Assembly: GCA_965222075.1 (NCBI GenBank)
Contig: OZ244937.1
Span: 3,872,001-3,936,000, forward strand
DNA: 64,000 nucleotides
Source of the DNA: Candidatus Latescibacterota bacterium
GTDB taxonomy: Bacteria; Latescibacterota; UBA2968; GCA-2709665
Reading direction: 5' to 3'
Part shown: positions 58,829 to 64,000 of the stretch, piece by piece
How positions within the stretch are numbered: the stretch's first letter is position 1
Layout: every line of letters starts with the position of its first letter
The notes under the pieces: model-generated
Database searches by the model: none
Told to the model about the DNA's origin: nothing
Seen by the model: only the letters and a program-made list of their open reading frames with translations
Position numbers and translations under genes: made by a program

Positions 58829-59024
58829 GATATCCTCCTCGAATAAAAGTAGCCGACCTCTGTGTCCCCAGCCAGACAGCAACTTCTGACACACCAAAAT
58901 AATCAATCATTTGTTCCCAGCGGCACCAAGGCGCTGTTCTATCCGTCATAAAAAAACCGCGATAGCTTGGTATTGCGGCACAAAAATGGGTAAATAGCCA
59001 ATCCGGACCTGAACGGTCAATAGC

Positions 59025-60011
59025 TTATCGACATAGGGCCGTTGGAGCAACCTCTGTGATAAATGACTGGTGATCAGAATAATGTGGCAAAATCGTATTG
59101 AAATCATCAAGATCGATTAAGATCGTTCCTGCACAGCACTTACGACATTCACGGCCTTGGGCGAATACATCGTTCAAGTGCTTTGGAGACGAGCCTGGAA
59201 GCGATGACGCGCAGTGCTCCGAAAGCTGAGTACAAGCGATCCGGACATCAGACACCTGTTCTCGGACAGCGGTCACAATCTCTGGCCGAGGTGCTCCATG
59301 TCGCCCCCGTCCGATCGAAAAAATGACCATAGCCGGTGATACGATCTCACAAAGAGTTCGGGCAAACACGGCCATATCCATGGAACCCGTCCTGCCACCA
59401 TGATGGGGAAATATAACAACCGGGGCAGTCGCATCCACTCCGGAATTGCGAAGGTCGTCCAGGCCAATGCTGTCCAGGTCTCCTGGAAGAAGTGCTATTG
59501 GGTTCCCGTCTTTTAACAAACGCGCTACTACACTGACTGAGTGTCTGGTAAGTTTTCTTCCTCGCTTATCCCTGCTACCCGGCCCCTTAGCAGCCAGATA
59601 CTTGCTGGGACCAAGAATTTCAATCTGCACCTCACTTCTATCAAATCCTCCTCTACTGTCTCTGGTCAACGACGTGTCAAAATCAAGTTTACCTGCAATG
59701 TCCGCACGGTCAAGTTCGTAAAGAAGATCACCCCAAAGTCTCGATCCCTTTTCTGAGTCAGTGTTCAACCGTACAGACCTAACTCGAAACTTGCTGGAAG
59801 ACAATAACTGGACCAGTCCCCCGATATGGTCTTCATCCGCATGAGAGATCAGTACAGCGTCGATTGTAGTAACTCCACTCTCTTCCAGGTACTCAAGTAA
59901 GGAACTCCCCAGACCTGTGTCGATGACTACCACACCTTCAGAATCGATAAGAATCGCGCTGTTTCCATGTCCTACATCAAGAATCGCCAGATTATGCTTT
60001 GGTACAGACAT
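59025..60011 (-). CDS. ComEC/Rec2-like metallo-beta-lactamase-fold hydrolase (predicted nuclease)
   Basis: 'LDVGHGNS', 'IDTG', 'SHADEDHIGG', 'GDL', 'PHHG'; Cys-rich C-terminus; ATG 60011 lies 10 nt after the upstream stop. Confidence 0.85.
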   Translation of the reverse strand: MSVPKHNLAILDVGHGNSAILIDSEGVVVIDTGLGSSLLEYLEESGVTTIDAVLISHADEDHIGGLVQLLSSSKFRVRSVRLNTDSEKGSRLWGDLLYELDRADIAGKLDFDTSLTRDSRGGFDRSEVQIEILGPSKYLAAKGPGSRDKRGRKLTRHSVSVVARLLKDGNPIALLPGDLDSIGLDDLRNSGVDATAPVVIFPHHGGRTGSMDMAVFARTLCEIVSPAMVIFSIGRGRHGAPRPEIVTAVREQVSDVRIACTQLSEHCASSLPGSSPKHLNDVFAQGRECRKCCAGTILIDLDDFNTILPHYSDHQSFITEVAPTALCR

Positions 60012-60021
60012 TGACAAGCCC

Positions 60022-60684
60022 TTAGTCAGCTTCCCAGCTATCGAAGTAGAGGTCTTCATGATTCTCGGCTCCAACATTAACCTGAGCATGAAACCGTTTT
60101 TCCAGCTTAACAAGAGATCGGATATCATTAGGCAAATCATCAAAAGAAACGCGGATCTTTTTTCTTGGATTCCAACCTGAAATGATAACGTAGAAATAAT
60201 CTTCACCAGGTTCCACTTCCTCGACCCGAACAAGCGTTCTCCAAGGCTTTCGACTCGGCTGGTACTGGCCATCGAACTCTTGGATGCAACGCTCAAATCC
60301 TCTTGCGATATTGTCCGGGTCAAGTTCGTCAGGCTTCAAAAGCGCTGGAATAAAACGTCTGCGGCTCCTCATAAGGCTAATGTCCACATCGGTGTAGGTT
60401 GTACATAGTACTGCTGGGATAATCTTATAACACTCAGCGACTATTTCATCACCATTGAACCTCGCATAATGTCCTTTCTTCCGCAGATGATAGTCGCAAA
60501 GTACAGCATCCACTTGAGTTGGTAATTGTTGTAAAAATCGCTGCAGGTTGTTCAGAGGGCCAGCCTCTTGTACAGGAAACAGCCCTAGTTCCTCTAAGGA
60601 GTATTCATAGCTTTCTCTGGCTCTTTCATCATCGTCAACAATTGACACCCGTTCGATTCTTGTGCTTTCAATCTGAAGTGGCAT
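60022..60684 (-). CDS. Response-regulator receiver plus unrecognised C-terminal domain
   Basis: 'SIVDDD', phosphoacceptor 'VLCDY', 'LCTTY', 'LLKP'; no HTH recognised. Confidence 0.82.
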   Translation of the reverse strand: MPLQIESTRIERVSIVDDDERARESYEYSLEELGLFPVQEAGPLNNLQRFLQQLPTQVDAVLCDYHLRKKGHYARFNGDEIVAECYKIIPAVLCTTYTDVDISLMRSRRRFIPALLKPDELDPDNIARGFERCIQEFDGQYQPSRKPWRTLVRVEEVEPGEDYFYVIISGWNPRKKIRVSFDDLPNDIRSLVKLEKRFHAQVNVGAENHEDLYFDSWEAD

Positions 60685-60687
60685 AAT

Positions 60688-62754
60688 TCATACTCCGAGG
60701 ATAGGTAACTCAATAACAATTTCAGCGCCACCAAATTCACTGTGCTCAACCGCATCAACTTCCCCTCCGAGATCATTCACCGCATCCCGAACAATTGTAA
60801 GACCAAGTCCTGTTCCGTTCTTTTTGGTTGTGTGACCAGGCAACCAGATATCTTTCTTACTTATCCCCTCAATGCCAGGACCGTTGTCAAGAACTCGAAG
60901 CGTAAAAACATTGCTCTCAACCTCGGTACGGATCAGAATCTTTCTCTTATCCGTGGTCGAACGTTCAAAAGCTGTCAGGCTGTTATTAATCAAATTTGTG
61001 AGGATCGACTCCACGGACGCCTCACTTCCACGCAAATAAGGTGCACCCTTACACAGATGGATATCAACATCGACATCTCGCCCATCAAGAAACGGATTGA
61101 ATGTTTCAATCACACTATCAATAACAGCATGAAGGTCGACACGAGATATTCTGCGCTTTTCATGGTCGACGAGTTTAAGCGTCGCTGCCCCAAGCACTGC
61201 AAGGCTTCCAATAGCTCGAACGATCCCTTTAACTGGTTTCATAAGCAACTTGTCGTATGCATTGCCGAGTTCCTTCTTCGCCCGTCTCTCAATCGCCTTA
61301 ATCGACAATGTGATTATCTTTATTGGGTTGGCATTCGATTCATGTGCAAAGGTTGCAGCCGTAATTCCAGCAGTGCTGAGCGTCCTGTAAAGTTGCACCT
61401 CTTTGTGTAGCTGCTGCACCTCTCGATCCCGCGAACGGTCATAAGCATCCACAGCTTGCTTTAACTCCTCTTGCAAATCCTCAGGTACTTTACTGATAAC
61501 ATCATCGAGATTTATTTTCGATCTGCTTGTTTTCTTAGGAGCAGTGGTACGTTTTTTCGTTCTTCGCTTCTCGGCGACCTCCAACCTTCTTTTAGCCATC
61601 CATTCCATTGTATCTTGAGCAAACGACTTCATCTCGAGAAAAGCATCCGCTTCTATAAATCCGGAGCGGTCCGTCTTCTGAATAAGAAGCTCTTCTATAT
61701 CAAAGACTTTAACACGTCCAATAGCAGTATTGGTACCTGGCCGTTCCTCCGGACTCTGAACCCGACGTAGATTCATATCGAGCCAATCATTTCCAGGGTT
61801 TCCGTAGGGTATCACTCGTAGCCCATTATGATAAAGATGCACTCCACCAAATTCCTGCAGCCATGTCCGTACCTCTCCAAGCGTGGACGACCGAGTCAAG
61901 AAAGTGGACCTGTTTAAGATAAAAACCCAGAGGTCGAACTTGACAGCAGAACATCTATACGGATGTTTTTCACGCGGTACGGTTAGTTCGTCGTGATCCG
62001 CTGAGAACAGTTTCTCCCCTCGCCAGTCCACTACGGATGCTTTAGCTATACCATTTTTATCTACGGAAGCGATTAAGTGATACTCTGCGTCATCAAAGTA
62101 TCGTTTTTGAACTATCTCTTCGAGGTCTGAAAACTCCGGAGCTTTAAGAAGTGGCTTGAAGCCCTCGGGGTCATCCCCAAATGGATCGGCCAATAATATG
62201 AGCTCACGAGCCAATCGTTTAAGGTCCATCCGTCCAATTCGTATTTTCAAATCCTCTAAGTGGATCTCTGTCCCCGATGTACTTCCTTTAGAGCGTCTGC
62301 TCTTCTCAATCCTAAGCTCTACTTCGTCGACATGCTCAACGTTTTCAAAATCCTTCCAGTCAATAAGAAGGTCGTACCGGGTGGTTTTCTCCGCTCCTGG
62401 ATGTGTTGTAAGCAAAGCGGCTGATCCCATACGCAACGCCGCCAGACGACCGAGTCCCTTACTACCTGCTGGAACTCTGCCAAGCCGTGTGCGCTGTCTG
62501 GAGGATTTCTCGGATCGTCCGATAACAAGCCATCCATTTTTAATTTCATCAGCGTCCATTCCGTCGCCGTCGTCGACGACTTGGACAGATCCTCCAGGCT
62601 GGTCAGTATGGATCAATTCTATAGTGCAGGTACGTGCATCCGCATCGTAGGCATTCTTAACGAGCTCTATGATCCCTTTGTCAGGACTTGGATTTAATTC
62701 CTCGCCGAGCCGACGAAGGATATCTGTTACGAATCGTATTTGTACATTGCTCAT
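60688..62754 (-). CDS. MORC-type GHKL ATPase fused to a histidine kinase
   Basis: N-terminal 'ELVKNAYDADA', 'DDGDGM', 'GSKGLGRLA'; central S5-like region; C-terminal H-box 'FAHE', N-box 'NLINNS', 'DNGPGI', 'GTGLGL'. Confidence 0.9.
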   Translation of the reverse strand: MSNVQIRFVTDILRRLGEELNPSPDKGIIELVKNAYDADARTCTIELIHTDQPGGSVQVVDDGDGMDADEIKNGWLVIGRSEKSSRQRTRLGRVPAGSKGLGRLAALRMGSAALLTTHPGAEKTTRYDLLIDWKDFENVEHVDEVELRIEKSRRSKGSTSGTEIHLEDLKIRIGRMDLKRLARELILLADPFGDDPEGFKPLLKAPEFSDLEEIVQKRYFDDAEYHLIASVDKNGIAKASVVDWRGEKLFSADHDELTVPREKHPYRCSAVKFDLWVFILNRSTFLTRSSTLGEVRTWLQEFGGVHLYHNGLRVIPYGNPGNDWLDMNLRRVQSPEERPGTNTAIGRVKVFDIEELLIQKTDRSGFIEADAFLEMKSFAQDTMEWMAKRRLEVAEKRRTKKRTTAPKKTSRSKINLDDVISKVPEDLQEELKQAVDAYDRSRDREVQQLHKEVQLYRTLSTAGITAATFAHESNANPIKIITLSIKAIERRAKKELGNAYDKLLMKPVKGIVRAIGSLAVLGAATLKLVDHEKRRISRVDLHAVIDSVIETFNPFLDGRDVDVDIHLCKGAPYLRGSEASVESILTNLINNSLTAFERSTTDKRKILIRTEVESNVFTLRVLDNGPGIEGISKKDIWLPGHTTKKNGTGLGLTIVRDAVNDLGGEVDAVEHSEFGGAEIVIELPILGV

Positions 62755-64000
62755 TCTTCATCGCTCCACCAGGGTAGATCAGCAAGAGCCGACACAGTCA
62801 AGTGCCGACAACGAATGTATTGATCTAACCATTGGGTTGTCTGTGGCTTCCGAAGAACGCGGAGTAGTTCCCGACAAGCCTTAACGGTTCCGTCTTTTGG
62901 AAGCAAAACAAGCAGATGATTTTCAACCGCCACGGGCCTAGCGTTATTAATAATCGTTCCAAGTGCTCGATGCTTGTCTCCTGGTCTTGAAGTCCGGCGA
63001 ACCACAACGAATGGCGGTGAAAAAACTCGACCCTCAAACCTTCGATTATTTGAAACTTCACGGACCATCTGCCACGGTGGTAGATTACGGGCATGTATGA
63101 ATGGATACCAAGAACCCTGGTGCGGATCTCGATAATCAACTACTGAACCAACACAAACATCAAACCGCTCACCCACGCACTCAGGGGTCACCCTTGTTGG
63201 TTGATTCCACCGAAATCCGCCCGAAACTATTGATTTCTTCTGAATTTCAATATCTAGAACAAATACGTCAACGTCCGCCCACCGATCAAACTGACCGTGA
63301 AGTTGGAGCCGATGTATATATGACCGTGATTCTATGAACTTTCGCCATCTCAAATATCGTGATCCACTTCTGAGTACATCAGGCAATATAGCTACGATCC
63401 GCGTGCCGACATTTGCGTGCAAAATACAGGCTTCCAAGAAGAGCGCCGCTGAGTTTACTTTTCCACTGGACCAGTAACAGCTTTTGGGGGCGTCTACCAA
63501 TCCGAACGGTGGATTTATGACAATGTGGGTTGCTGCTTTGATTGCATCGTGATCTGTCAGCCCACACCTGCTAACAATTTTAGGAAACGTTCTGTGGATT
63601 TGGGGAATAGTACATCCATCAAGTGGAATGTTGTTACGAAAGGCAGCAAGTATGAGTCTTGCCTTAGCGGCCCGAATGAACTCTGGATGAAGGTCGCGCC
63701 CCATAATTTGGGCACCCCAACTTCTCAGAGTAGAAGTGAGATTCTGTTTTTTACTCAACCGCGCAGCGCAGGCAATGAGCAGATCACCCGTACCACATGC
63801 CGGGTCCAAAATGACTGATCGATCATCTAATGTACCTATAAGTGATGCCACGGCAACTTGTGACAATTTTGAGCCCGTGAAAAAAGCCCCTGCTGTCCGC
63901 ATATCTGACAATGAAACAAGCCTGCGAAGTTCATGCGCAGGCTGACCATCCAGTGCGTCATCAATACGCGCAATTATATCTCTATTGTCTAAAGGCTGCA
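62751..64000 (-). CDS. N6-adenine DNA methyltransferase (gamma-type), 5' end beyond the window
   Basis: 'GAFFT', motif I 'LDPACGTG', motif IV 'NPPF', C-terminal TRD-like region; frame stays open from 63911 to the window edge. Confidence 0.88.
   Translation of the reverse strand, partial: QPLDNRDIIARIDDALDGQPAHELRRLVSLSDMRTAGAFFTGSKLSQVAVASLIGTLDDRSVILDPACGTGDLLIACAARLSKKQNLTSTLRSWGAQIMGRDLHPEFIRAAKARLILAAFRNNIPLDGCTIPQIHRTFPKIVSRCGLTDHDAIKAATHIVINPPFGLVDAPKSCYWSSGKVNSAALFLEACILHANVGTRIVAILPDVLRSGSRYLRWRKFIESRSYIHRLQLHGQFDRWADVDVFVLDIEIQKKSIVSGGFRWNQPTRVTPECVGERFDVCVGSVVDYRDPHQGSWYPFIHARNLPPWQMVREVSNNRRFEGRVFSPPFVVVRRTSRPGDKHRALGTIINNARPVAVENHLLVLLPKDGTVKACRELLRVLRKPQTTQWLDQYIRCRHLTVSALADLPWWSDEE

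What the first reader, a model, noticed from the sequence alone, without database searches (positions are those of the whole stretch)
59025..64000. Candidate undescribed defence system: m6A methyltransferase, MORC-ATPase/histidine kinase, receiver protein and MBL-fold nuclease
Seen: four minus-strand genes tightly coupled (ATGA overlap at 62751-62754, 3-nt gap at 60685-60687, 10-nt gap at 60012-60021), all with intact catalytic motifs: DPACGTG and NPPF; two GHKL modules plus H-box His; receiver DDD, D, T, K; HxDxDH and PHHG. No PD-(D/E)xK, HNH or helicase restriction subunit was recognised in the visible part. Known: prokaryotic MORC ATPases, including kinase fusions with receiver partners, occur in restriction-modification-like operons, and ComEC-type MBL domains are nucleases. 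Inference: a self/non-self system in which the MTase marks the host, the soluble MORC-kinase senses unmodified DNA or MTase inhibition, and His-to-Asp transfer switches on the MBL effector for restriction or abortive infection. I do not recognise this four-gene combination as a named system, but could not search to confirm that.
Basis: partly seen in the sequence, partly recalled or inferred. Interest (0 to 1): 0.85.

Follow-up and report, generated by a model that had tools for sequence, protein, structure and literature searches.

The report
Ambrosia-like defence cassette with MBL nuclease
Four horizontally acquired genes (a DNA methylase, a MORC-like ATPase fused to a histidine kinase, an unusual receiver protein and a ComEC-type metallo-hydrolase) form a widespread mobile cassette that is an unnamed, effector-swapped relative of the recently reported Ambrosia anti-phage system.

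Summary
Four translationally coupled minus-strand genes lie at 59025 to about 64054-64112, with the stated junctions and motifs. They fill a 5.5-kb low-GC segment (window 58857-64390) that a same-genus genome lacks; there the two flanking genes sit about 53 bp apart. No restriction enzyme lies beyond 64000.

The order MTase-kinase-receiver-MBL recurs in 27 of 33 genome loci from many phyla, in 3 viral contigs and on plasmids. The four proteins' identity matrices co-vary (Pearson 0.81-0.88).

It is not a wholly undescribed kind of system. The MTase (hhalign E 5e-95) and the kinase (E 4e-51) are homologous to those of MTase-kinase-REC-HNH loci. That is the architecture of Ambrosia, validated in a 2025 preprint. 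MORC-kinase/receiver pairs beside methylases were described by computation in 2021.

What differs is the output. The 220-aa receiver has no HTH. It carries a beta domain that a complex prediction places on the MBL beside its HxDxDH motif (ipSAE 0.89, best control 0.00). The MBL is closest to the ComEC nuclease domain.

Best reading: a kinase-gated nuclease defence module, a new variant of a known kind. The methylase's protective role is unproven, and Ambrosia's data argue against it.

The parts
58857..64000 (.). Inserted low-GC segment. It runs on to about window 64390, beyond the window end, and carries only the four-gene cassette and its flanking spacers.
   Evidence: blastn of the same-genus locus L157 against L002: L157 389-1243 matches L002 1-857 and L157 1260-2716 matches L002 6392-7848. 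L002 858-6391 (5,534 bp) is therefore extra in this genome. GC is 0.45-0.50 inside against 0.57-0.64 in the flanks. In L157 the GFO/IDH/MocA and HhH-GPD genes lie about 53 bp apart.
59025..60011 (-). ComEC-type metallo-beta-lactamase-fold hydrolase (328 aa), the predicted nuclease/phosphodiesterase effector, with a C-terminal segment holding four conserved Cys.
   Evidence: Pfam Lactamase_B 3.4e-14. NCBIfam ComEC_Rec2 8e-10, far below its cut-off. Model pLDDT 88.6. Best PDB match is 9ic4, the ComEC beta-lactamase-like domain: E 8.6e-15, TM 0.74. Invariant D12, G14, H15, G16, D31, H57, D59, D61, H62, D178, H203, H204, G205, and Cys C260, C267, C293, C327.
60025..60267 (-). Receiver protein, C-terminal beta domain (aa 140-220), the predicted docking domain for the MBL.
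   Evidence: Five strands with a short helix between strands 3 and 4. No Pfam hit. It makes nearly all contacts with the MBL in the complex prediction. Invariant R145, W171, N203. Its interface residues are more conserved than the rest of the domain: 0.59 against 0.46, one-sided Mann-Whitney p 0.011.
60271..60684 (-). Receiver protein, divergent REC domain (aa 1-138) with acidic pair D17-D18, phospho-acceptor D64 and T95.
60700..61023 (-). Kinase, C-terminal catalytic ATP-binding (CA, HATPase_c) domain, aa 578-685.
   Evidence: Pfam HATPase_c 1.8e-19. Invariant N587, N591, D623, G625, G627, G647, G649-L652. Profile against PDB: ZraS 5.7e-21 over aa 446-685.
61165..61422 (-). Kinase, DHp-like dimerisation/phosphotransfer helices with H-box FAHES (H471, codon 61342-61344).
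   Evidence: H471 is invariant in 28 sequences. The region aligns to the DHp of solved histidine kinases and to NCBIfam kinase models from aa 445.
62200..62721 (-). Kinase, N-terminal MORC-like GHKL ATPase module (aa 12-185). A conserved middle region (aa about 200-400) follows, holding PYGNPGNDWLDMNLRR and QKTDRSGF.
   Evidence: Pfam HATPase_c_3 3.3e-24. Best PDB sequence matches for this part: MORC3 6e-6, MORC2 9e-6, MutL 2e-4. Invariant E30, N34, D37, D61, G63, G65, G97, K99-G102, and K360, T361, D362, R363.
62751..64000 (-). Gamma-class N6-adenine DNA methyltransferase. The gene runs on to about 64054-64112, beyond the window. Its C-terminal half is unusually well conserved.
   Evidence: Pfam N6_Mtase 5.3e-8. 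PDB profile hits: M.BseCI 1.4e-9, EcoKI HsdM 2.8e-9. Invariant D102, G106, N199, P200, and R372-T373-S374, N397-H398, C412, C434, H436. Homologous to the MTase of MTase-kinase-REC-HNH loci: hhalign probability 100, E 5.3e-95, 43% identity over 395 columns.

Best explanation
This is a compact, horizontally mobile anti-phage/anti-plasmid cassette of the Ambrosia type: a methylase-linked, two-component-controlled nuclease system.

The core shared with Ambrosia-architecture loci has two parts. One is an N6-adenine DNA methyltransferase. The other is a soluble histidine kinase whose input domain is a MORC-like GHKL ATPase.

Proposed working, all of it inferred:
1. The MORC-like module, probably together with the translationally coupled MTase, reads a DNA or infection signal through ATP-dependent clamping.
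2. This drives autophosphorylation on H471 and phosphotransfer to D64 of the 220-aa receiver.
3. The receiver is not a transcription factor. It is a regulatory subunit that sits, through its C-terminal beta domain, on the ComEC-type MBL hydrolase next to the metal-binding motif.
4. Phosphorylation of the REC domain changes that complex and licenses (or releases) the MBL to cut nucleic acid.

Shown here: the domain identities, conservation of all catalytic motifs, conserved gene order, co-inheritance, recent insertion, homology of MTase and kinase to the HNH-type systems, and a predicted receiver-MBL interface.

Not shown: defence activity, the signal, the direction of control, the substrate, and whether methylation protects self DNA.
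For: (1) Unit and mobility.
- A same-genus genome has the empty site, so the extra 5,534 bp hold just these genes.
- GC is 0.45-0.50 inside against about 0.6 outside.
- The MBL was found in only 2 of 60 relatives searched.

(2) Recurrence.
- Of 33 genome loci from Acidobacteriota, Actinomycetota, Bacteroidota, Planctomycetota, Spirochaetia, Armatimonadota, Verrucomicrobiota, Myxococcota, Gammaproteobacteria and others, kinase-receiver-MBL is present in 32. The one miss is a contig end.
- The family MTase lies directly upstream in 28, and the full order is kept in 27.
- The cassette is also in 3 of 70 viral-contig loci and on Burkholderia, Hymenobacter and Pseudanabaena plasmids.
- The receiver family has 386 clusters at E<=1e-30, and the best 150 are all 175-248 aa.

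(3) Co-inheritance. The pairwise identity matrices of the four proteins over 22 cassettes correlate at Pearson 0.81-0.88. For each of the four pairs tested, 0 of 2000 permutations reached the observed value.

(4) Link to a validated system.
- Loci L116, L121 and L141 encode MTase, MORC-kinase, a receiver of about 210 aa and an HNH of about 210 aa.
- Their MTase and kinase are homologous to ours end to end: E 5.3e-95 and 4.1e-51.
- This is the architecture of Ambrosia. There all genes and the receiver Asp (D60A) are needed for phage defence.

(5) Effector. The closest solved fold is the ComEC nuclease-type MBL domain. Weak PADLOC hits are to MBL effectors of other defence systems: LmuA 2e-8, RTasMBL 8e-8, Avs1a 2e-4.

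(6) Receiver-MBL contact.
- The complex prediction supports binding but does not show it. ipSAE was 0.89, 0.88 and 0.89; the best of 3 controls was 0.00.
- The runs agree in at least 98% of contacts, and the partner pLDDT is at least 86.
- This mark was reached by 116 of 157 solved complexes and 2 of 215 mismatched pairs. These counts hold only roughly, because my own alignments were used.
- The interface is receiver 142-207 against MBL 34-40, 60-74, 91-99 and 273-289.

(7) Context. In 13 of 22 loci tested, at least one of the three ORFs on either side hits a PADLOC model at E<=1e-10 (Type IIG, Mza, SIR2, Type II R-M and others). That is 20 of 125 ORFs.
Against: - No experiment exists on this variant.
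- In this genome the flanks are ordinary metabolic and repair genes, not a defence island.
- The defence-context count (13 of 22 loci) has no background control. One of the 13 is only a generic RtcR-type regulator hit and another only a control-protein HTH hit.
- The receiver lacks the conserved REC lysine and scores below the Pfam threshold, so phosphotransfer chemistry may be atypical.
- MBL interface residues are not more conserved than the rest of the MBL: 0.46 against 0.54, p 0.93. The comparison includes the buried core.
- The complex score is a model's confidence, not a measurement.
- MBL-fold enzymes also hydrolyse non-nucleic-acid phosphodiesters. The second-best fold match is the phosphorylcholine esterase Pce.
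- Seven of 33 loci carry stops or frameshifts in at least one gene. This could mean a costly system, or assembly errors.
Confidence: 0.62

Rival explanations
1. Transcriptional model, as proposed for Ambrosia. The receiver is a DNA-binding response regulator that, once phosphorylated, switches on transcription of the methylase and nuclease genes. The MBL itself is unregulated.
For: The Ambrosia authors report a wHTH in AbrC and infection-induced expression of reporters placed at abrA and abrD. The kinase and MTase here are homologous to those of HNH-type loci. A five-stranded beta barrel could in principle bind nucleic acid.
Against: The receiver here has no HTH. Pfam finds none, and the model shows REC plus five strands. 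Its C-terminal domain differs from that of the HNH-type receivers: hhalign aligns only REC residues 11-100, at probability 9. It is predicted with high confidence to bind the MBL, not DNA. No XRE/C-protein gene lies upstream. The receiver and effector appear to be swapped together across subfamilies, which fits an effector-specific adaptor better than a promoter-binding factor.
Confidence: 0.12
2. Conventional restriction-modification logic. The MTase protects host DNA at a fixed motif. The MBL (perhaps with the MORC module) is the restriction enzyme for unmethylated DNA. The kinase-receiver pair is only an accessory regulator, for example of establishment.
For: The MTase is present in 28 of 33 loci directly upstream and in one more nearby. 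In L021 an unrelated MTase sits directly downstream of the MBL on the same strand, as if a methylase were required. N-terminal GHKL modules occur in BbrUII/HgiDII-type restriction enzymes: NCBIfam 9e-20 over aa 12-185. MORC/paraMORC ATPases are linked to R-M systems (PMC2292703, passages read).
Against: In Ambrosia, methylation by AbrA alone did not let phages escape. L019 and L023 look intact without a cassette MTase. L023 has only a separate PstI-type R-M pair next door. All kinase and receiver phosphorelay residues are invariant across phyla, which argues that the relay is central rather than accessory.
Confidence: 0.1
3. Not an immune system. It is either a selfish addiction/stabilisation module of mobile elements, or a signalling-controlled DNA-processing or phosphodiesterase function (repair, DNA uptake, nucleotide turnover) that merely travels on mobile DNA.
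For: The cassette occurs on conjugative plasmids beside ParDE and an integrase. In this genome it stands alone between housekeeping genes. MBL enzymes have many substrates. Seven of 33 copies look degraded, as expected for a dispensable element.
Against: It is homologous to the MTase and kinase of the HNH-type architecture that was shown to block phages. Known defence genes are frequent neighbours. The wider kinase family lies on 70 viral-contig loci, where defence genes often ride. No replication, transfer or uptake genes are conserved beside it.
Confidence: 0.08

Closest known systems
Ambrosia anti-phage system (AbrR-AbrA-AbrB-AbrC-AbrD), P. aeruginosa; bioRxiv 10.1101/2025.09.30.679545 (section 8 and passages read; supplements closed)
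   Same: The gene order is the same: N6-adenine MTase, then a HATPase/histidine kinase, a REC protein, and a nuclease. Loci with that architecture (L116, L121, L141) have an MTase 36-45% identical to ours (hhalign E 5.3e-95) and a collinear kinase (E 4.1e-51). The receiver Asp is essential in Ambrosia (D60A), and the equivalent D64 is invariant here.
   Different: The effector is a ComEC-type MBL instead of an HNH. The receiver output is a beta domain predicted to bind the MBL, not a wHTH. There is no XRE gene. The kinase is 688 aa, against 733-783 aa in the HNH-type loci. This family is spread over many phyla, whereas Ambrosia is reported only in Gammaproteobacteria. I could not compare with the published sequences themselves.
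HEF_HK (PF19191) / Response_reg_2 (PF19192) two-component-like pairs next to R-M genes; Bellieny-Rabelo et al. 2021, PMC8011034 (Results read)
   Same: The kinase architecture is the same: HATPase_c_3, then DHp, then HATPase_c. It is soluble, paired with a divergent receiver and adjacent to a DNA methylase. Our kinase profile aligns to a PF19191 protein over 627 columns at probability 99.7, E 7.5e-26.
   Different: Neither Pfam model hits our proteins. Those kinases are about 1000 aa, with a roughly 300-aa insert. Their receivers are 555-617 aa single proteins with no detectable similarity to our receiver or MBL. Their methylase is C5-cytosine type. No occurrence of 'metallo-beta-lactamase' was found in the paper's full text.
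Detocs (DtcA-DtcB-DtcC); bioRxiv 10.1101/2023.01.24.525353 (passages read)
   Same: Works alike in principle: a His-Asp relay used directly as an immune switch for a toxic effector rather than for gene regulation. The kinase His and receiver Asp are required.
   Different: The families are unrelated. The sensor is TPR, not MORC-like. The effector (a PNP ATP nucleosidase) is fused to the REC. There is an extra buffer receiver and no methylase. No PADLOC hit to it.
Prokaryotic MORC/paraMORC GHKL ATPases of R-M systems; Iyer, Abhiman and Aravind 2008, PMC2292703 (passages read)
   Same: An N-terminal GHKL module closest to MORC2/3 and MutL among solved proteins, linked to a DNA methylase and a nuclease and laterally mobile.
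   Different: That paper's text has no receiver, no lactamase and no histidine-kinase fusion (0 occurrences of 'receiver' and 'lactamase'). Partners there are SF2 helicases and RE-fold, HNH, Vsr or TIR domains. The S5 domain of our protein was not verified.
ComEC beta-lactamase-like nuclease domain (PDB 9ic4) and MBL effectors of other defence systems (LmuA, Avs1a, DRT-associated MBL)
   Same: The fold and motif set are shared: DVGHG, an HxHxDH-type motif, GD, PHHG. Foldseek E 8.6e-15, TM 0.74, 22% identity. Weak PADLOC and NCBIfam hits.
   Different: It is a stand-alone soluble 328-aa protein without ComEC's membrane domains. The second His of motif 2 is Asp (HxDxDH) in all 27 sequences. It has a C-terminal four-Cys segment. 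All family scores are far below the curated cut-offs.

Membership tests
Ambrosia (as defined in the 2025 preprint) | N6-adenine DNA methyltransferase AbrA | tested here: inconclusive
   Our MTase is homologous (E 5.3e-95, 43% identity) to the MTase of MTase-kinase-REC-HNH loci.
Ambrosia (as defined in the 2025 preprint) | Sensor histidine kinase / HSP90-like ATPase AbrB | tested here: inconclusive
   The architecture is the same, and the protein is homologous end to end to the kinase of HNH-type loci (E 4.1e-51, 27% identity, 682 columns). The published AbrB was not available.
Ambrosia (as defined in the 2025 preprint) | Response regulator AbrC with REC plus winged HTH | tested here: not met
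   REC is present, but the C-terminal part is a five-strand beta domain with no HTH. Only REC residues 11-100 align weakly to an HNH-type receiver.
Ambrosia (as defined in the 2025 preprint) | Type IV-like HNH endonuclease AbrD | tested here: not met
   The fourth gene is an MBL-fold hydrolase. There is no HNH in the inserted segment.
Ambrosia (as defined in the 2025 preprint) | HipB-like XRE regulator AbrR | tested here: not met
   There is no HTH ORF in the 290 bp upstream of the MTase. The only ORF of at least 50 aa lying wholly in that spacer on the operon's strand is a 73-aa hydrophobic frame with a TTG start.
Ambrosia (as defined in the 2025 preprint) | Protects against phages; needs all genes and the receiver Asp | not testable with these tools
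   Needs phage challenge of a host carrying the cassette and point mutants.
Pfam HEF_HK (PF19191) kinases | Match to PF19191 over its gathering score | tested here: not met
   No PF19191 hit at E<=0.1. The protein is nevertheless homologous to a PF19191 protein by profile comparison, so it is a sister family.
Pfam Response_reg_2 (PF19192) receivers | Match to PF19192 over its gathering score | tested here: not met
   No hit in our receiver. No hit in three genomes that carry the cassette (0 of 3). hhalign to a PF19192 protein gives probability 0.1.
Canonical two-component receiver (REC, PF00072) | Acidic pair, phospho-acceptor Asp, Thr/Ser and Lys in a (beta-alpha)5 fold | tested here: inconclusive
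   The fold is REC. D17, D18, D64 and T95 are conserved. The Lys position is variable, and R106 is invariant instead. The Pfam score of 17.8 bits is below the 30.2 cut-off.
Histidine kinase (DHp plus CA) | H-box His and the N, G1 and G2 boxes | tested here: met
   H471, N587/N591, D623xGxG and G647xGLGL are invariant in 28 sequences. PDB profile hits to ZraS and FixL kinases at E 6e-21 to 8e-20.
MORC/paraMORC GHKL ATPases | GHKL domain with intact ATP-binding motifs followed by an S5-fold domain | tested here: inconclusive
   The GHKL motifs are invariant and closest to MORC3 and MORC2.
Conventional Type II restriction-modification system | MTase paired with a recognised restriction endonuclease | tested here: not met
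   There is no REase-fold gene in the inserted segment or beside it. PADLOC REase_II hits to the kinase cover only its GHKL module.
ComEC/Rec2 competence protein | MBL domain joined to the competence membrane channel domain | tested here: not met
   The TIGR00361 score is 37.5 bits against a cut-off of 190 and covers only the MBL part. The protein is 328 aa and modelled as one soluble domain.
Detocs | TPR sensor kinase DtcA, buffer receiver DtcB, REC-effector fusion DtcC | tested here: inconclusive
   No Detocs model appears among the PADLOC hits. The architecture differs: MORC-like input, separate effector, one receiver. I did not confirm that the 2023 PADLOC library holds Detocs models.

The most novel reading that the evidence does not exclude
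The receiver is a dedicated phospho-switch subunit of a ComEC-type nuclease. On this reading the cassette is a purely post-translational immune relay: the MORC-like clamp on DNA drives His-Asp transfer, which opens the nuclease, with no transcription step. In the wider MORC-kinase superfamily, receiver output domains and effectors would be exchanged as matched pairs (beta domain with MBL, another domain with HNH, large fused receivers elsewhere). The conserved MTase would serve as the DNA-recognition subunit of the sensor rather than as a protective marker.
Probability: 0.3. Interest if true: 0.75.

Novelty: new variant of a known kind. Interest (0 to 1): 0.55.

Why it matters
If it works as proposed, this variant would show that the Ambrosia-type core (methylase plus MORC-like kinase) is a general sensing platform onto which different receiver-effector pairs are plugged. 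It would also show that a bacterial two-component relay can gate a nuclease directly through a docking receiver rather than through gene regulation.

The family is large: 386 receiver clusters at 50% identity at E<=1e-30. It is spread over many phyla, including soil and marine lineages poorly covered by current defence catalogues. A named model would therefore annotate many genomes.

The system also offers a compact place to ask what prokaryotic MORC-like ATPases sense. That question bears on eukaryotic MORC proteins.

Tried and rejected
- Restriction enzyme beyond 64000: none. The next gene is an HhH-GPD glycosylase at host GC, and the same-genus empty site shows the insert holds only the four genes.
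- Named system in PADLOC-DB 2.0.0 or NCBIfam 20.0: only generic or far sub-threshold hits. The receiver hits nothing in PADLOC.
- Pfam PF19191 and PF19192: no hits.
- Similarity of our receiver or MBL to the large PF19192 receivers, or to a 362-aa REC-like neighbour of a related kinase: none.
- Fused receiver-MBL proteins: none among the best 150 of 1410 profile hits. None in the 'longer' word search, which is weak evidence.
- Fold of the receiver's C-terminal domain: not identified. Both fold searches were filled by REC matches covering residues 1-141, and the domain was not folded alone. Its strand-helix order fits an OB-like barrel, but that is my reading, not a test.
- Integrase, tRNA-type site or flanking direct repeats: no convincing repeat.
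- Promoter: a TTGACG-17-TATATT site lies upstream of the MTase, but promoter-like sites in the region (6) do not exceed shuffles (mean 7.0).
- XRE regulator upstream: none.
- Higher conservation of the MBL side of the predicted interface: not seen.
- Literature: MORC / histidine kinase / receiver / restriction-modification / metallo-beta-lactamase, at least 4 of 5 terms, gave 14 papers.
- Literature: defense system / histidine kinase / GHKL / methyltransferase / MBL / phage, all 6 terms, gave 0 papers.
- Literature: anti-phage / histidine kinase / receiver domain / metallo-beta-lactamase / methyltransferase, at least 4 of 5 terms, gave 9 papers.
- Literature: HEF_HK / Response_reg_2 gave 4 papers.
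- None of these describes the MBL variant. A figure legend of the DefensePredictor paper (PMC13092281, legend only) lists HATPase and REC among domains of predicted systems; I could not see which system.
- Iyer 2008 and Kaur 2020 do not describe a kinase fusion with receiver and MBL.

Full report
**What is in the sequence**

Four minus-strand ORFs are present as described:
- an MBL-fold protein, 59025-60011 (328 aa from the ATG at 60011);
- a receiver-like protein, 60022-60684 (220 aa);
- a 688-aa protein with two GHKL modules, 60688-62754;
- an N6-adenine methyltransferase, starting its stop at 62751 and running off the window.

I read the junctions directly. The MTase stop and the kinase start share ATGA at 62751-62754. 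Three bases separate the kinase stop from the receiver start, and ten separate the receiver stop from the MBL start.

The window is G000:C1:3872001-3936000. In the genome the MTase ORF ends at window 64112 at most. A GTG at about 64054 fits the N-termini of homologues better (inference).

**Domain assignments**

Pfam gives N6_Mtase (5e-8), HATPase_c_3 (3e-24) plus HATPase_c (2e-19), and Lactamase_B (3e-14). Response_reg scores only 0.0038, below threshold.

A profile of the kinase family hits solved histidine kinases with its C-terminal half (ZraS 5.7e-21). With its N-terminal GHKL module it hits MORC3 (6e-6), MORC2 (9e-6) and MutL (2e-4).

The MTase profile hits M.BseCI and EcoKI HsdM.

The MBL model (pLDDT 88.6) is closest to the beta-lactamase-like domain of ComEC (9ic4, E 8.6e-15, TM 0.74). 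The phosphorylcholine esterase Pce comes next.

**Motifs**

With one exception, each is invariant or nearly so in alignments of 25-29 family members. The exception is the receiver lysine: K117-P118 exists in this copy, but the position varies across the family, where R106 and I112-P113 are invariant.

**A clean, recent insertion**

GC falls from about 0.58-0.64 to 0.45-0.50 across the four genes and rises again right after them. The neighbours are ordinary genes:
- on one side, a GFO/IDH/MocA oxidoreductase, an S15 peptidase and phosphatidylserine decarboxylase;
- on the other, an HhH-GPD glycosylase, an amidohydrolase and an aminotransferase.

In the one same-genus genome held (G404), the oxidoreductase and glycosylase genes are about 53 bp apart. 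blastn shows that L002 858-6391 (5,534 bp, window 58857-64390) is extra here and replaces 16 bp. So the unit is exactly these four genes plus spacers, and no restriction enzyme lies beyond 64000.

I found no integrase and no convincing flanking repeats. A TTGACG-17-TATATT site lies upstream of the MTase, but promoter-like sites in the region (6) do not exceed shuffles (mean 7.0). The MBL was found in only 2 of 60 relatives searched, and not in G404.

**Recurrence**

A scan of one genome per species returned 33 loci with a kinase relative at 46-79% identity. They come from Acidobacteriota, Actinomycetota, Bacteroidota, Planctomycetota, Spirochaetia, Armatimonadota, Verrucomicrobiota, Myxococcota, Gammaproteobacteria and others.

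By tblastn:
- kinase-receiver-MBL is present in 32 of 33; the one miss, L027, is cut by a contig end;
- the family MTase lies directly upstream in 28;
- all four genes in this order occur in 27;
- in L034 the MTase lies downstream on the other strand;
- L019, L021, L023 and L026 have no family MTase within 7 kb.

L021 has an unrelated 608-aa MTase directly after the MBL on the same strand. L023 has a separate PstI-type R-M pair next door.

Seven loci carry stops, frameshifts or truncations in at least one gene: L005, L011, L012, L026, L031, L032 and L035. Several of these are long-read metagenome bins, so some defects may be assembly errors.

Over the window plus the 21 fully intact loci, the pairwise identity matrices of the four proteins correlate at Pearson 0.81-0.88. 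For each of the four pairs I permuted, 0 of 2000 permutations reached the observed value. The genes travel together.

The cassette also lies elsewhere:
- on a conjugative Burkholderia plasmid beside an integrase, ParDE and a DEAD-box helicase, where it is annotated merely as 'type I R-M subunit M, ATP-binding protein, response regulator, MBL fold metallo-hydrolase';
- on three other plasmids, from B. aenigmatica, Hymenobacter volaticus and Pseudanabaena, which carry a full-length kinase of this family at 41-50% identity; I did not inspect their neighbouring genes;
- on 3 of 70 IMG/VR loci that hold a kinase relative.

A profile of the receiver finds 1410 cluster representatives at E<=1e-3 and 386 at E<=1e-30. 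The best 150 are all 175-248 aa.

**Genomic context**

I passed 125 of 171 flanking ORFs (22 of 30 loci, three ORFs a side) to PADLOC. Twenty ORFs in 13 loci hit a model at E<=1e-10. The hits include Type IIG enzymes, MzaB/C/D, SIR2, PDC-S28, PDC-S02, a Type II R-M pair and a Snf2/HKD protein. They also include one generic RtcR-type regulator hit and one control-protein HTH hit. There is no background control, so this is suggestive only. In the present genome the cassette is not in a defence island.

**Relation to what is known**

Neither PADLOC-DB 2.0.0 nor NCBIfam 20.0 has a specific model for any of the four proteins, and the receiver hits nothing in PADLOC. Two papers matter.

*Bellieny-Rabelo et al. 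2021* (PMC8011034, Results read) described HATPase_c_3+HEF_HK+HATPase_c kinases paired with Response_reg_2 proteins next to R-M genes.
- Our proteins do not match those Pfam models.
- I fetched three such loci. They are C5-methylase, kinase of about 1000 aa, receiver of 555-617 aa.
- Our kinase profile aligns to one of those kinases over 627 columns (probability 99.7, E 7.5e-26). Theirs has a roughly 300-aa insert.
- Their receiver shows no similarity to our receiver or MBL.

*A 2025 preprint* (10.1101/2025.09.30.679545, section 8 read) validates 'Ambrosia' in P. aeruginosa. Its genes are an XRE regulator, an N6 MTase AbrA, a HATPase/kinase AbrB, a REC-wHTH AbrC and an HNH AbrD.
- All genes and AbrC D60 are needed.
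- Reporter expression rises on infection.
- Phages grown on AbrA-only cells stay sensitive.

I could not obtain the Ambrosia sequences because the supplements are closed. Among viral contigs, however, I found three loci (L116, L121, L141) with exactly that order: MTase, kinase of 733-783 aa, a REC-like protein of about 210 aa, and an HNH of about 210 aa.
- Their MTase belongs to our MTase family (hhalign probability 100, E 5.3e-95, 43% identity over 395 columns).
- Their kinase is collinear with ours (probability 100, E 4.1e-51, 27% identity over 682 columns).
- Their receiver aligns only weakly, and only in the REC part (probability 9).

A 400-genome sample of Gammaproteobacteria was centred on G001, which carries the cassette. 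One other genome there (G053) had our family. About nine had related 700-790-aa MORC-like kinases, which sit next to C5, HsdM-type or Eco57I-type methylases, Vsr, and 280-450-aa receiver-like proteins.

The picture is a superfamily with a conserved MORC-like kinase, a methylase of varying type, and a variable receiver-plus-effector output. Our branch shares the MTase with the HNH (Ambrosia-type) branch and differs in the output pair.

**How it probably works**

The new element here is the output. The receiver has no HTH. Its C-terminal domain has five strands with a short helix after the third, which is an OB-like order; I did not confirm this by a fold search.

A complex prediction places this domain on the MBL:
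- It supports binding but does not show it. ipSAE was 0.89, 0.88 and 0.89, against 0.00 for the best of three controls.
- The runs agree in at least 98% of contacts, and the partner pLDDT is at least 86.
- That mark was reached by 116 of 157 solved complexes and 2 of 215 mismatched pairs. The counts hold only roughly, because my own alignments were used.
- I know of no solved receiver/ComEC-type MBL complex from which the model could have recalled this (recall, not a search).

The contacts are receiver 124, 142-174 and 195-207 with MBL 34-40, 60-74, 91-99 and 273-289. On the receiver side they include the invariant W171 and N203. On the MBL side they lie next to the H57xDxD61-H62 metal motif.

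Receiver interface residues are more conserved than the rest of that domain (0.59 against 0.46, p 0.011). MBL interface residues are not (0.46 against 0.54, p 0.93), although that comparison includes the buried core.

Together with the invariant H471 and D64, this favours a post-translational relay. The kinase phosphorylates the receiver, and the receiver, as a subunit of the MBL, licenses or releases it.

What the MORC-like module senses is unknown. So is whether the MTase protects self DNA. The Ambrosia result, and the two apparently intact cassettes that have no linked MTase gene (L019, L023), argue against simple R-M logic. The near-constant linkage, the translational coupling to the kinase, the highly conserved MTase C-terminal half and the replacement by another MTase in L021 argue that a methylase is functionally needed, perhaps as the DNA-recognition part of the sensor. 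These steps are inference.

**Verdict**

The cassette is an unnamed, effector-swapped relative of a system class that was described by computation in 2021 and validated in 2025. It is a new variant of a known kind, of moderate interest.

Earlier notes of this scan on other genomes (read after I had reached this reading) say the same. They are not independent evidence.

The tallies include four genomes flagged as unpublished (G042, G144, G299, G311). No locus described here comes from them.

Noticed in passing
L005 (kinase), L012 (MBL and MTase), L011 (MBL), L026, L031, L032, L035: Seven of 33 related cassettes carry internal stops, frameshifts or truncations in at least one gene. L031 and L035 are two decayed copies in one metagenome bin. 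This could reflect the cost or autoimmunity of the system, or long-read assembly errors.
   Followed up: partly
L021:10769-12592 (+): A cassette that lacks the family MTase has an unrelated 608-aa MTase (PADLOC MTase_II 3.7e-65, also MTase_III models) directly after the MBL on the same strand. This looks like a non-homologous replacement of the methylase.
   Followed up: partly
L044 (Campylobacter jejuni plasmid NZ_CP092024.1, 1845-15842) and 40 further Campylobacter plasmid records: Conjugative Campylobacter plasmids carry a distant (24% identical) MORC-like kinase followed by a 340-aa 'response regulator' and a convergent dcm methylase. They sit next to VapD, HicAB and an AAA ATPase. This is another branch of the same superfamily in a well-studied plasmid type.
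   Followed up: no
L008:117-5135 and L008:10830-11807; L006:10851-14427: In two Acidobacteriota loci the cassette is flanked by other defence genes: MzaB/C/D (E 3e-64, 2e-111, 3e-12) on one side and a SIR2-like ORF, or SIR2 plus PDC-S28, on the other. These are true defence islands, unlike the present genome.
   Followed up: no
window 60022-60684 (receiver), residues R106, I112-P113, K117: The REC lysine that normally follows strand 5 is not conserved in this family, while an arginine in helix 4 (R106) and an Ile-Pro pair are invariant. The phospho-switch may use a different residue set.
   Followed up: no
window 59025-59250 (MBL residues about 255-328): The MBL ends in a segment with four conserved cysteines (C260, C267, C293, C327). 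All but two family members (L028, L029) have it. Part of it (273-289) is in the predicted receiver interface. It may be a metal or redox site.
   Followed up: no
L158 (G405:C4:389745-390845): The orthologue of the flanking GFO/IDH/MocA oxidoreductase in one related genome shows one in-frame TGA in the search output.
   Followed up: no
L116, L121, L141 (IMG/VR contigs): MTase-kinase-REC-HNH (Ambrosia-architecture) loci lie on predicted viral contigs. In L141 the locus sits next to a CI-type repressor (Peptidase_S24 plus Phage_CI_repr), suggesting carriage by a prophage.
   Followed up: partly
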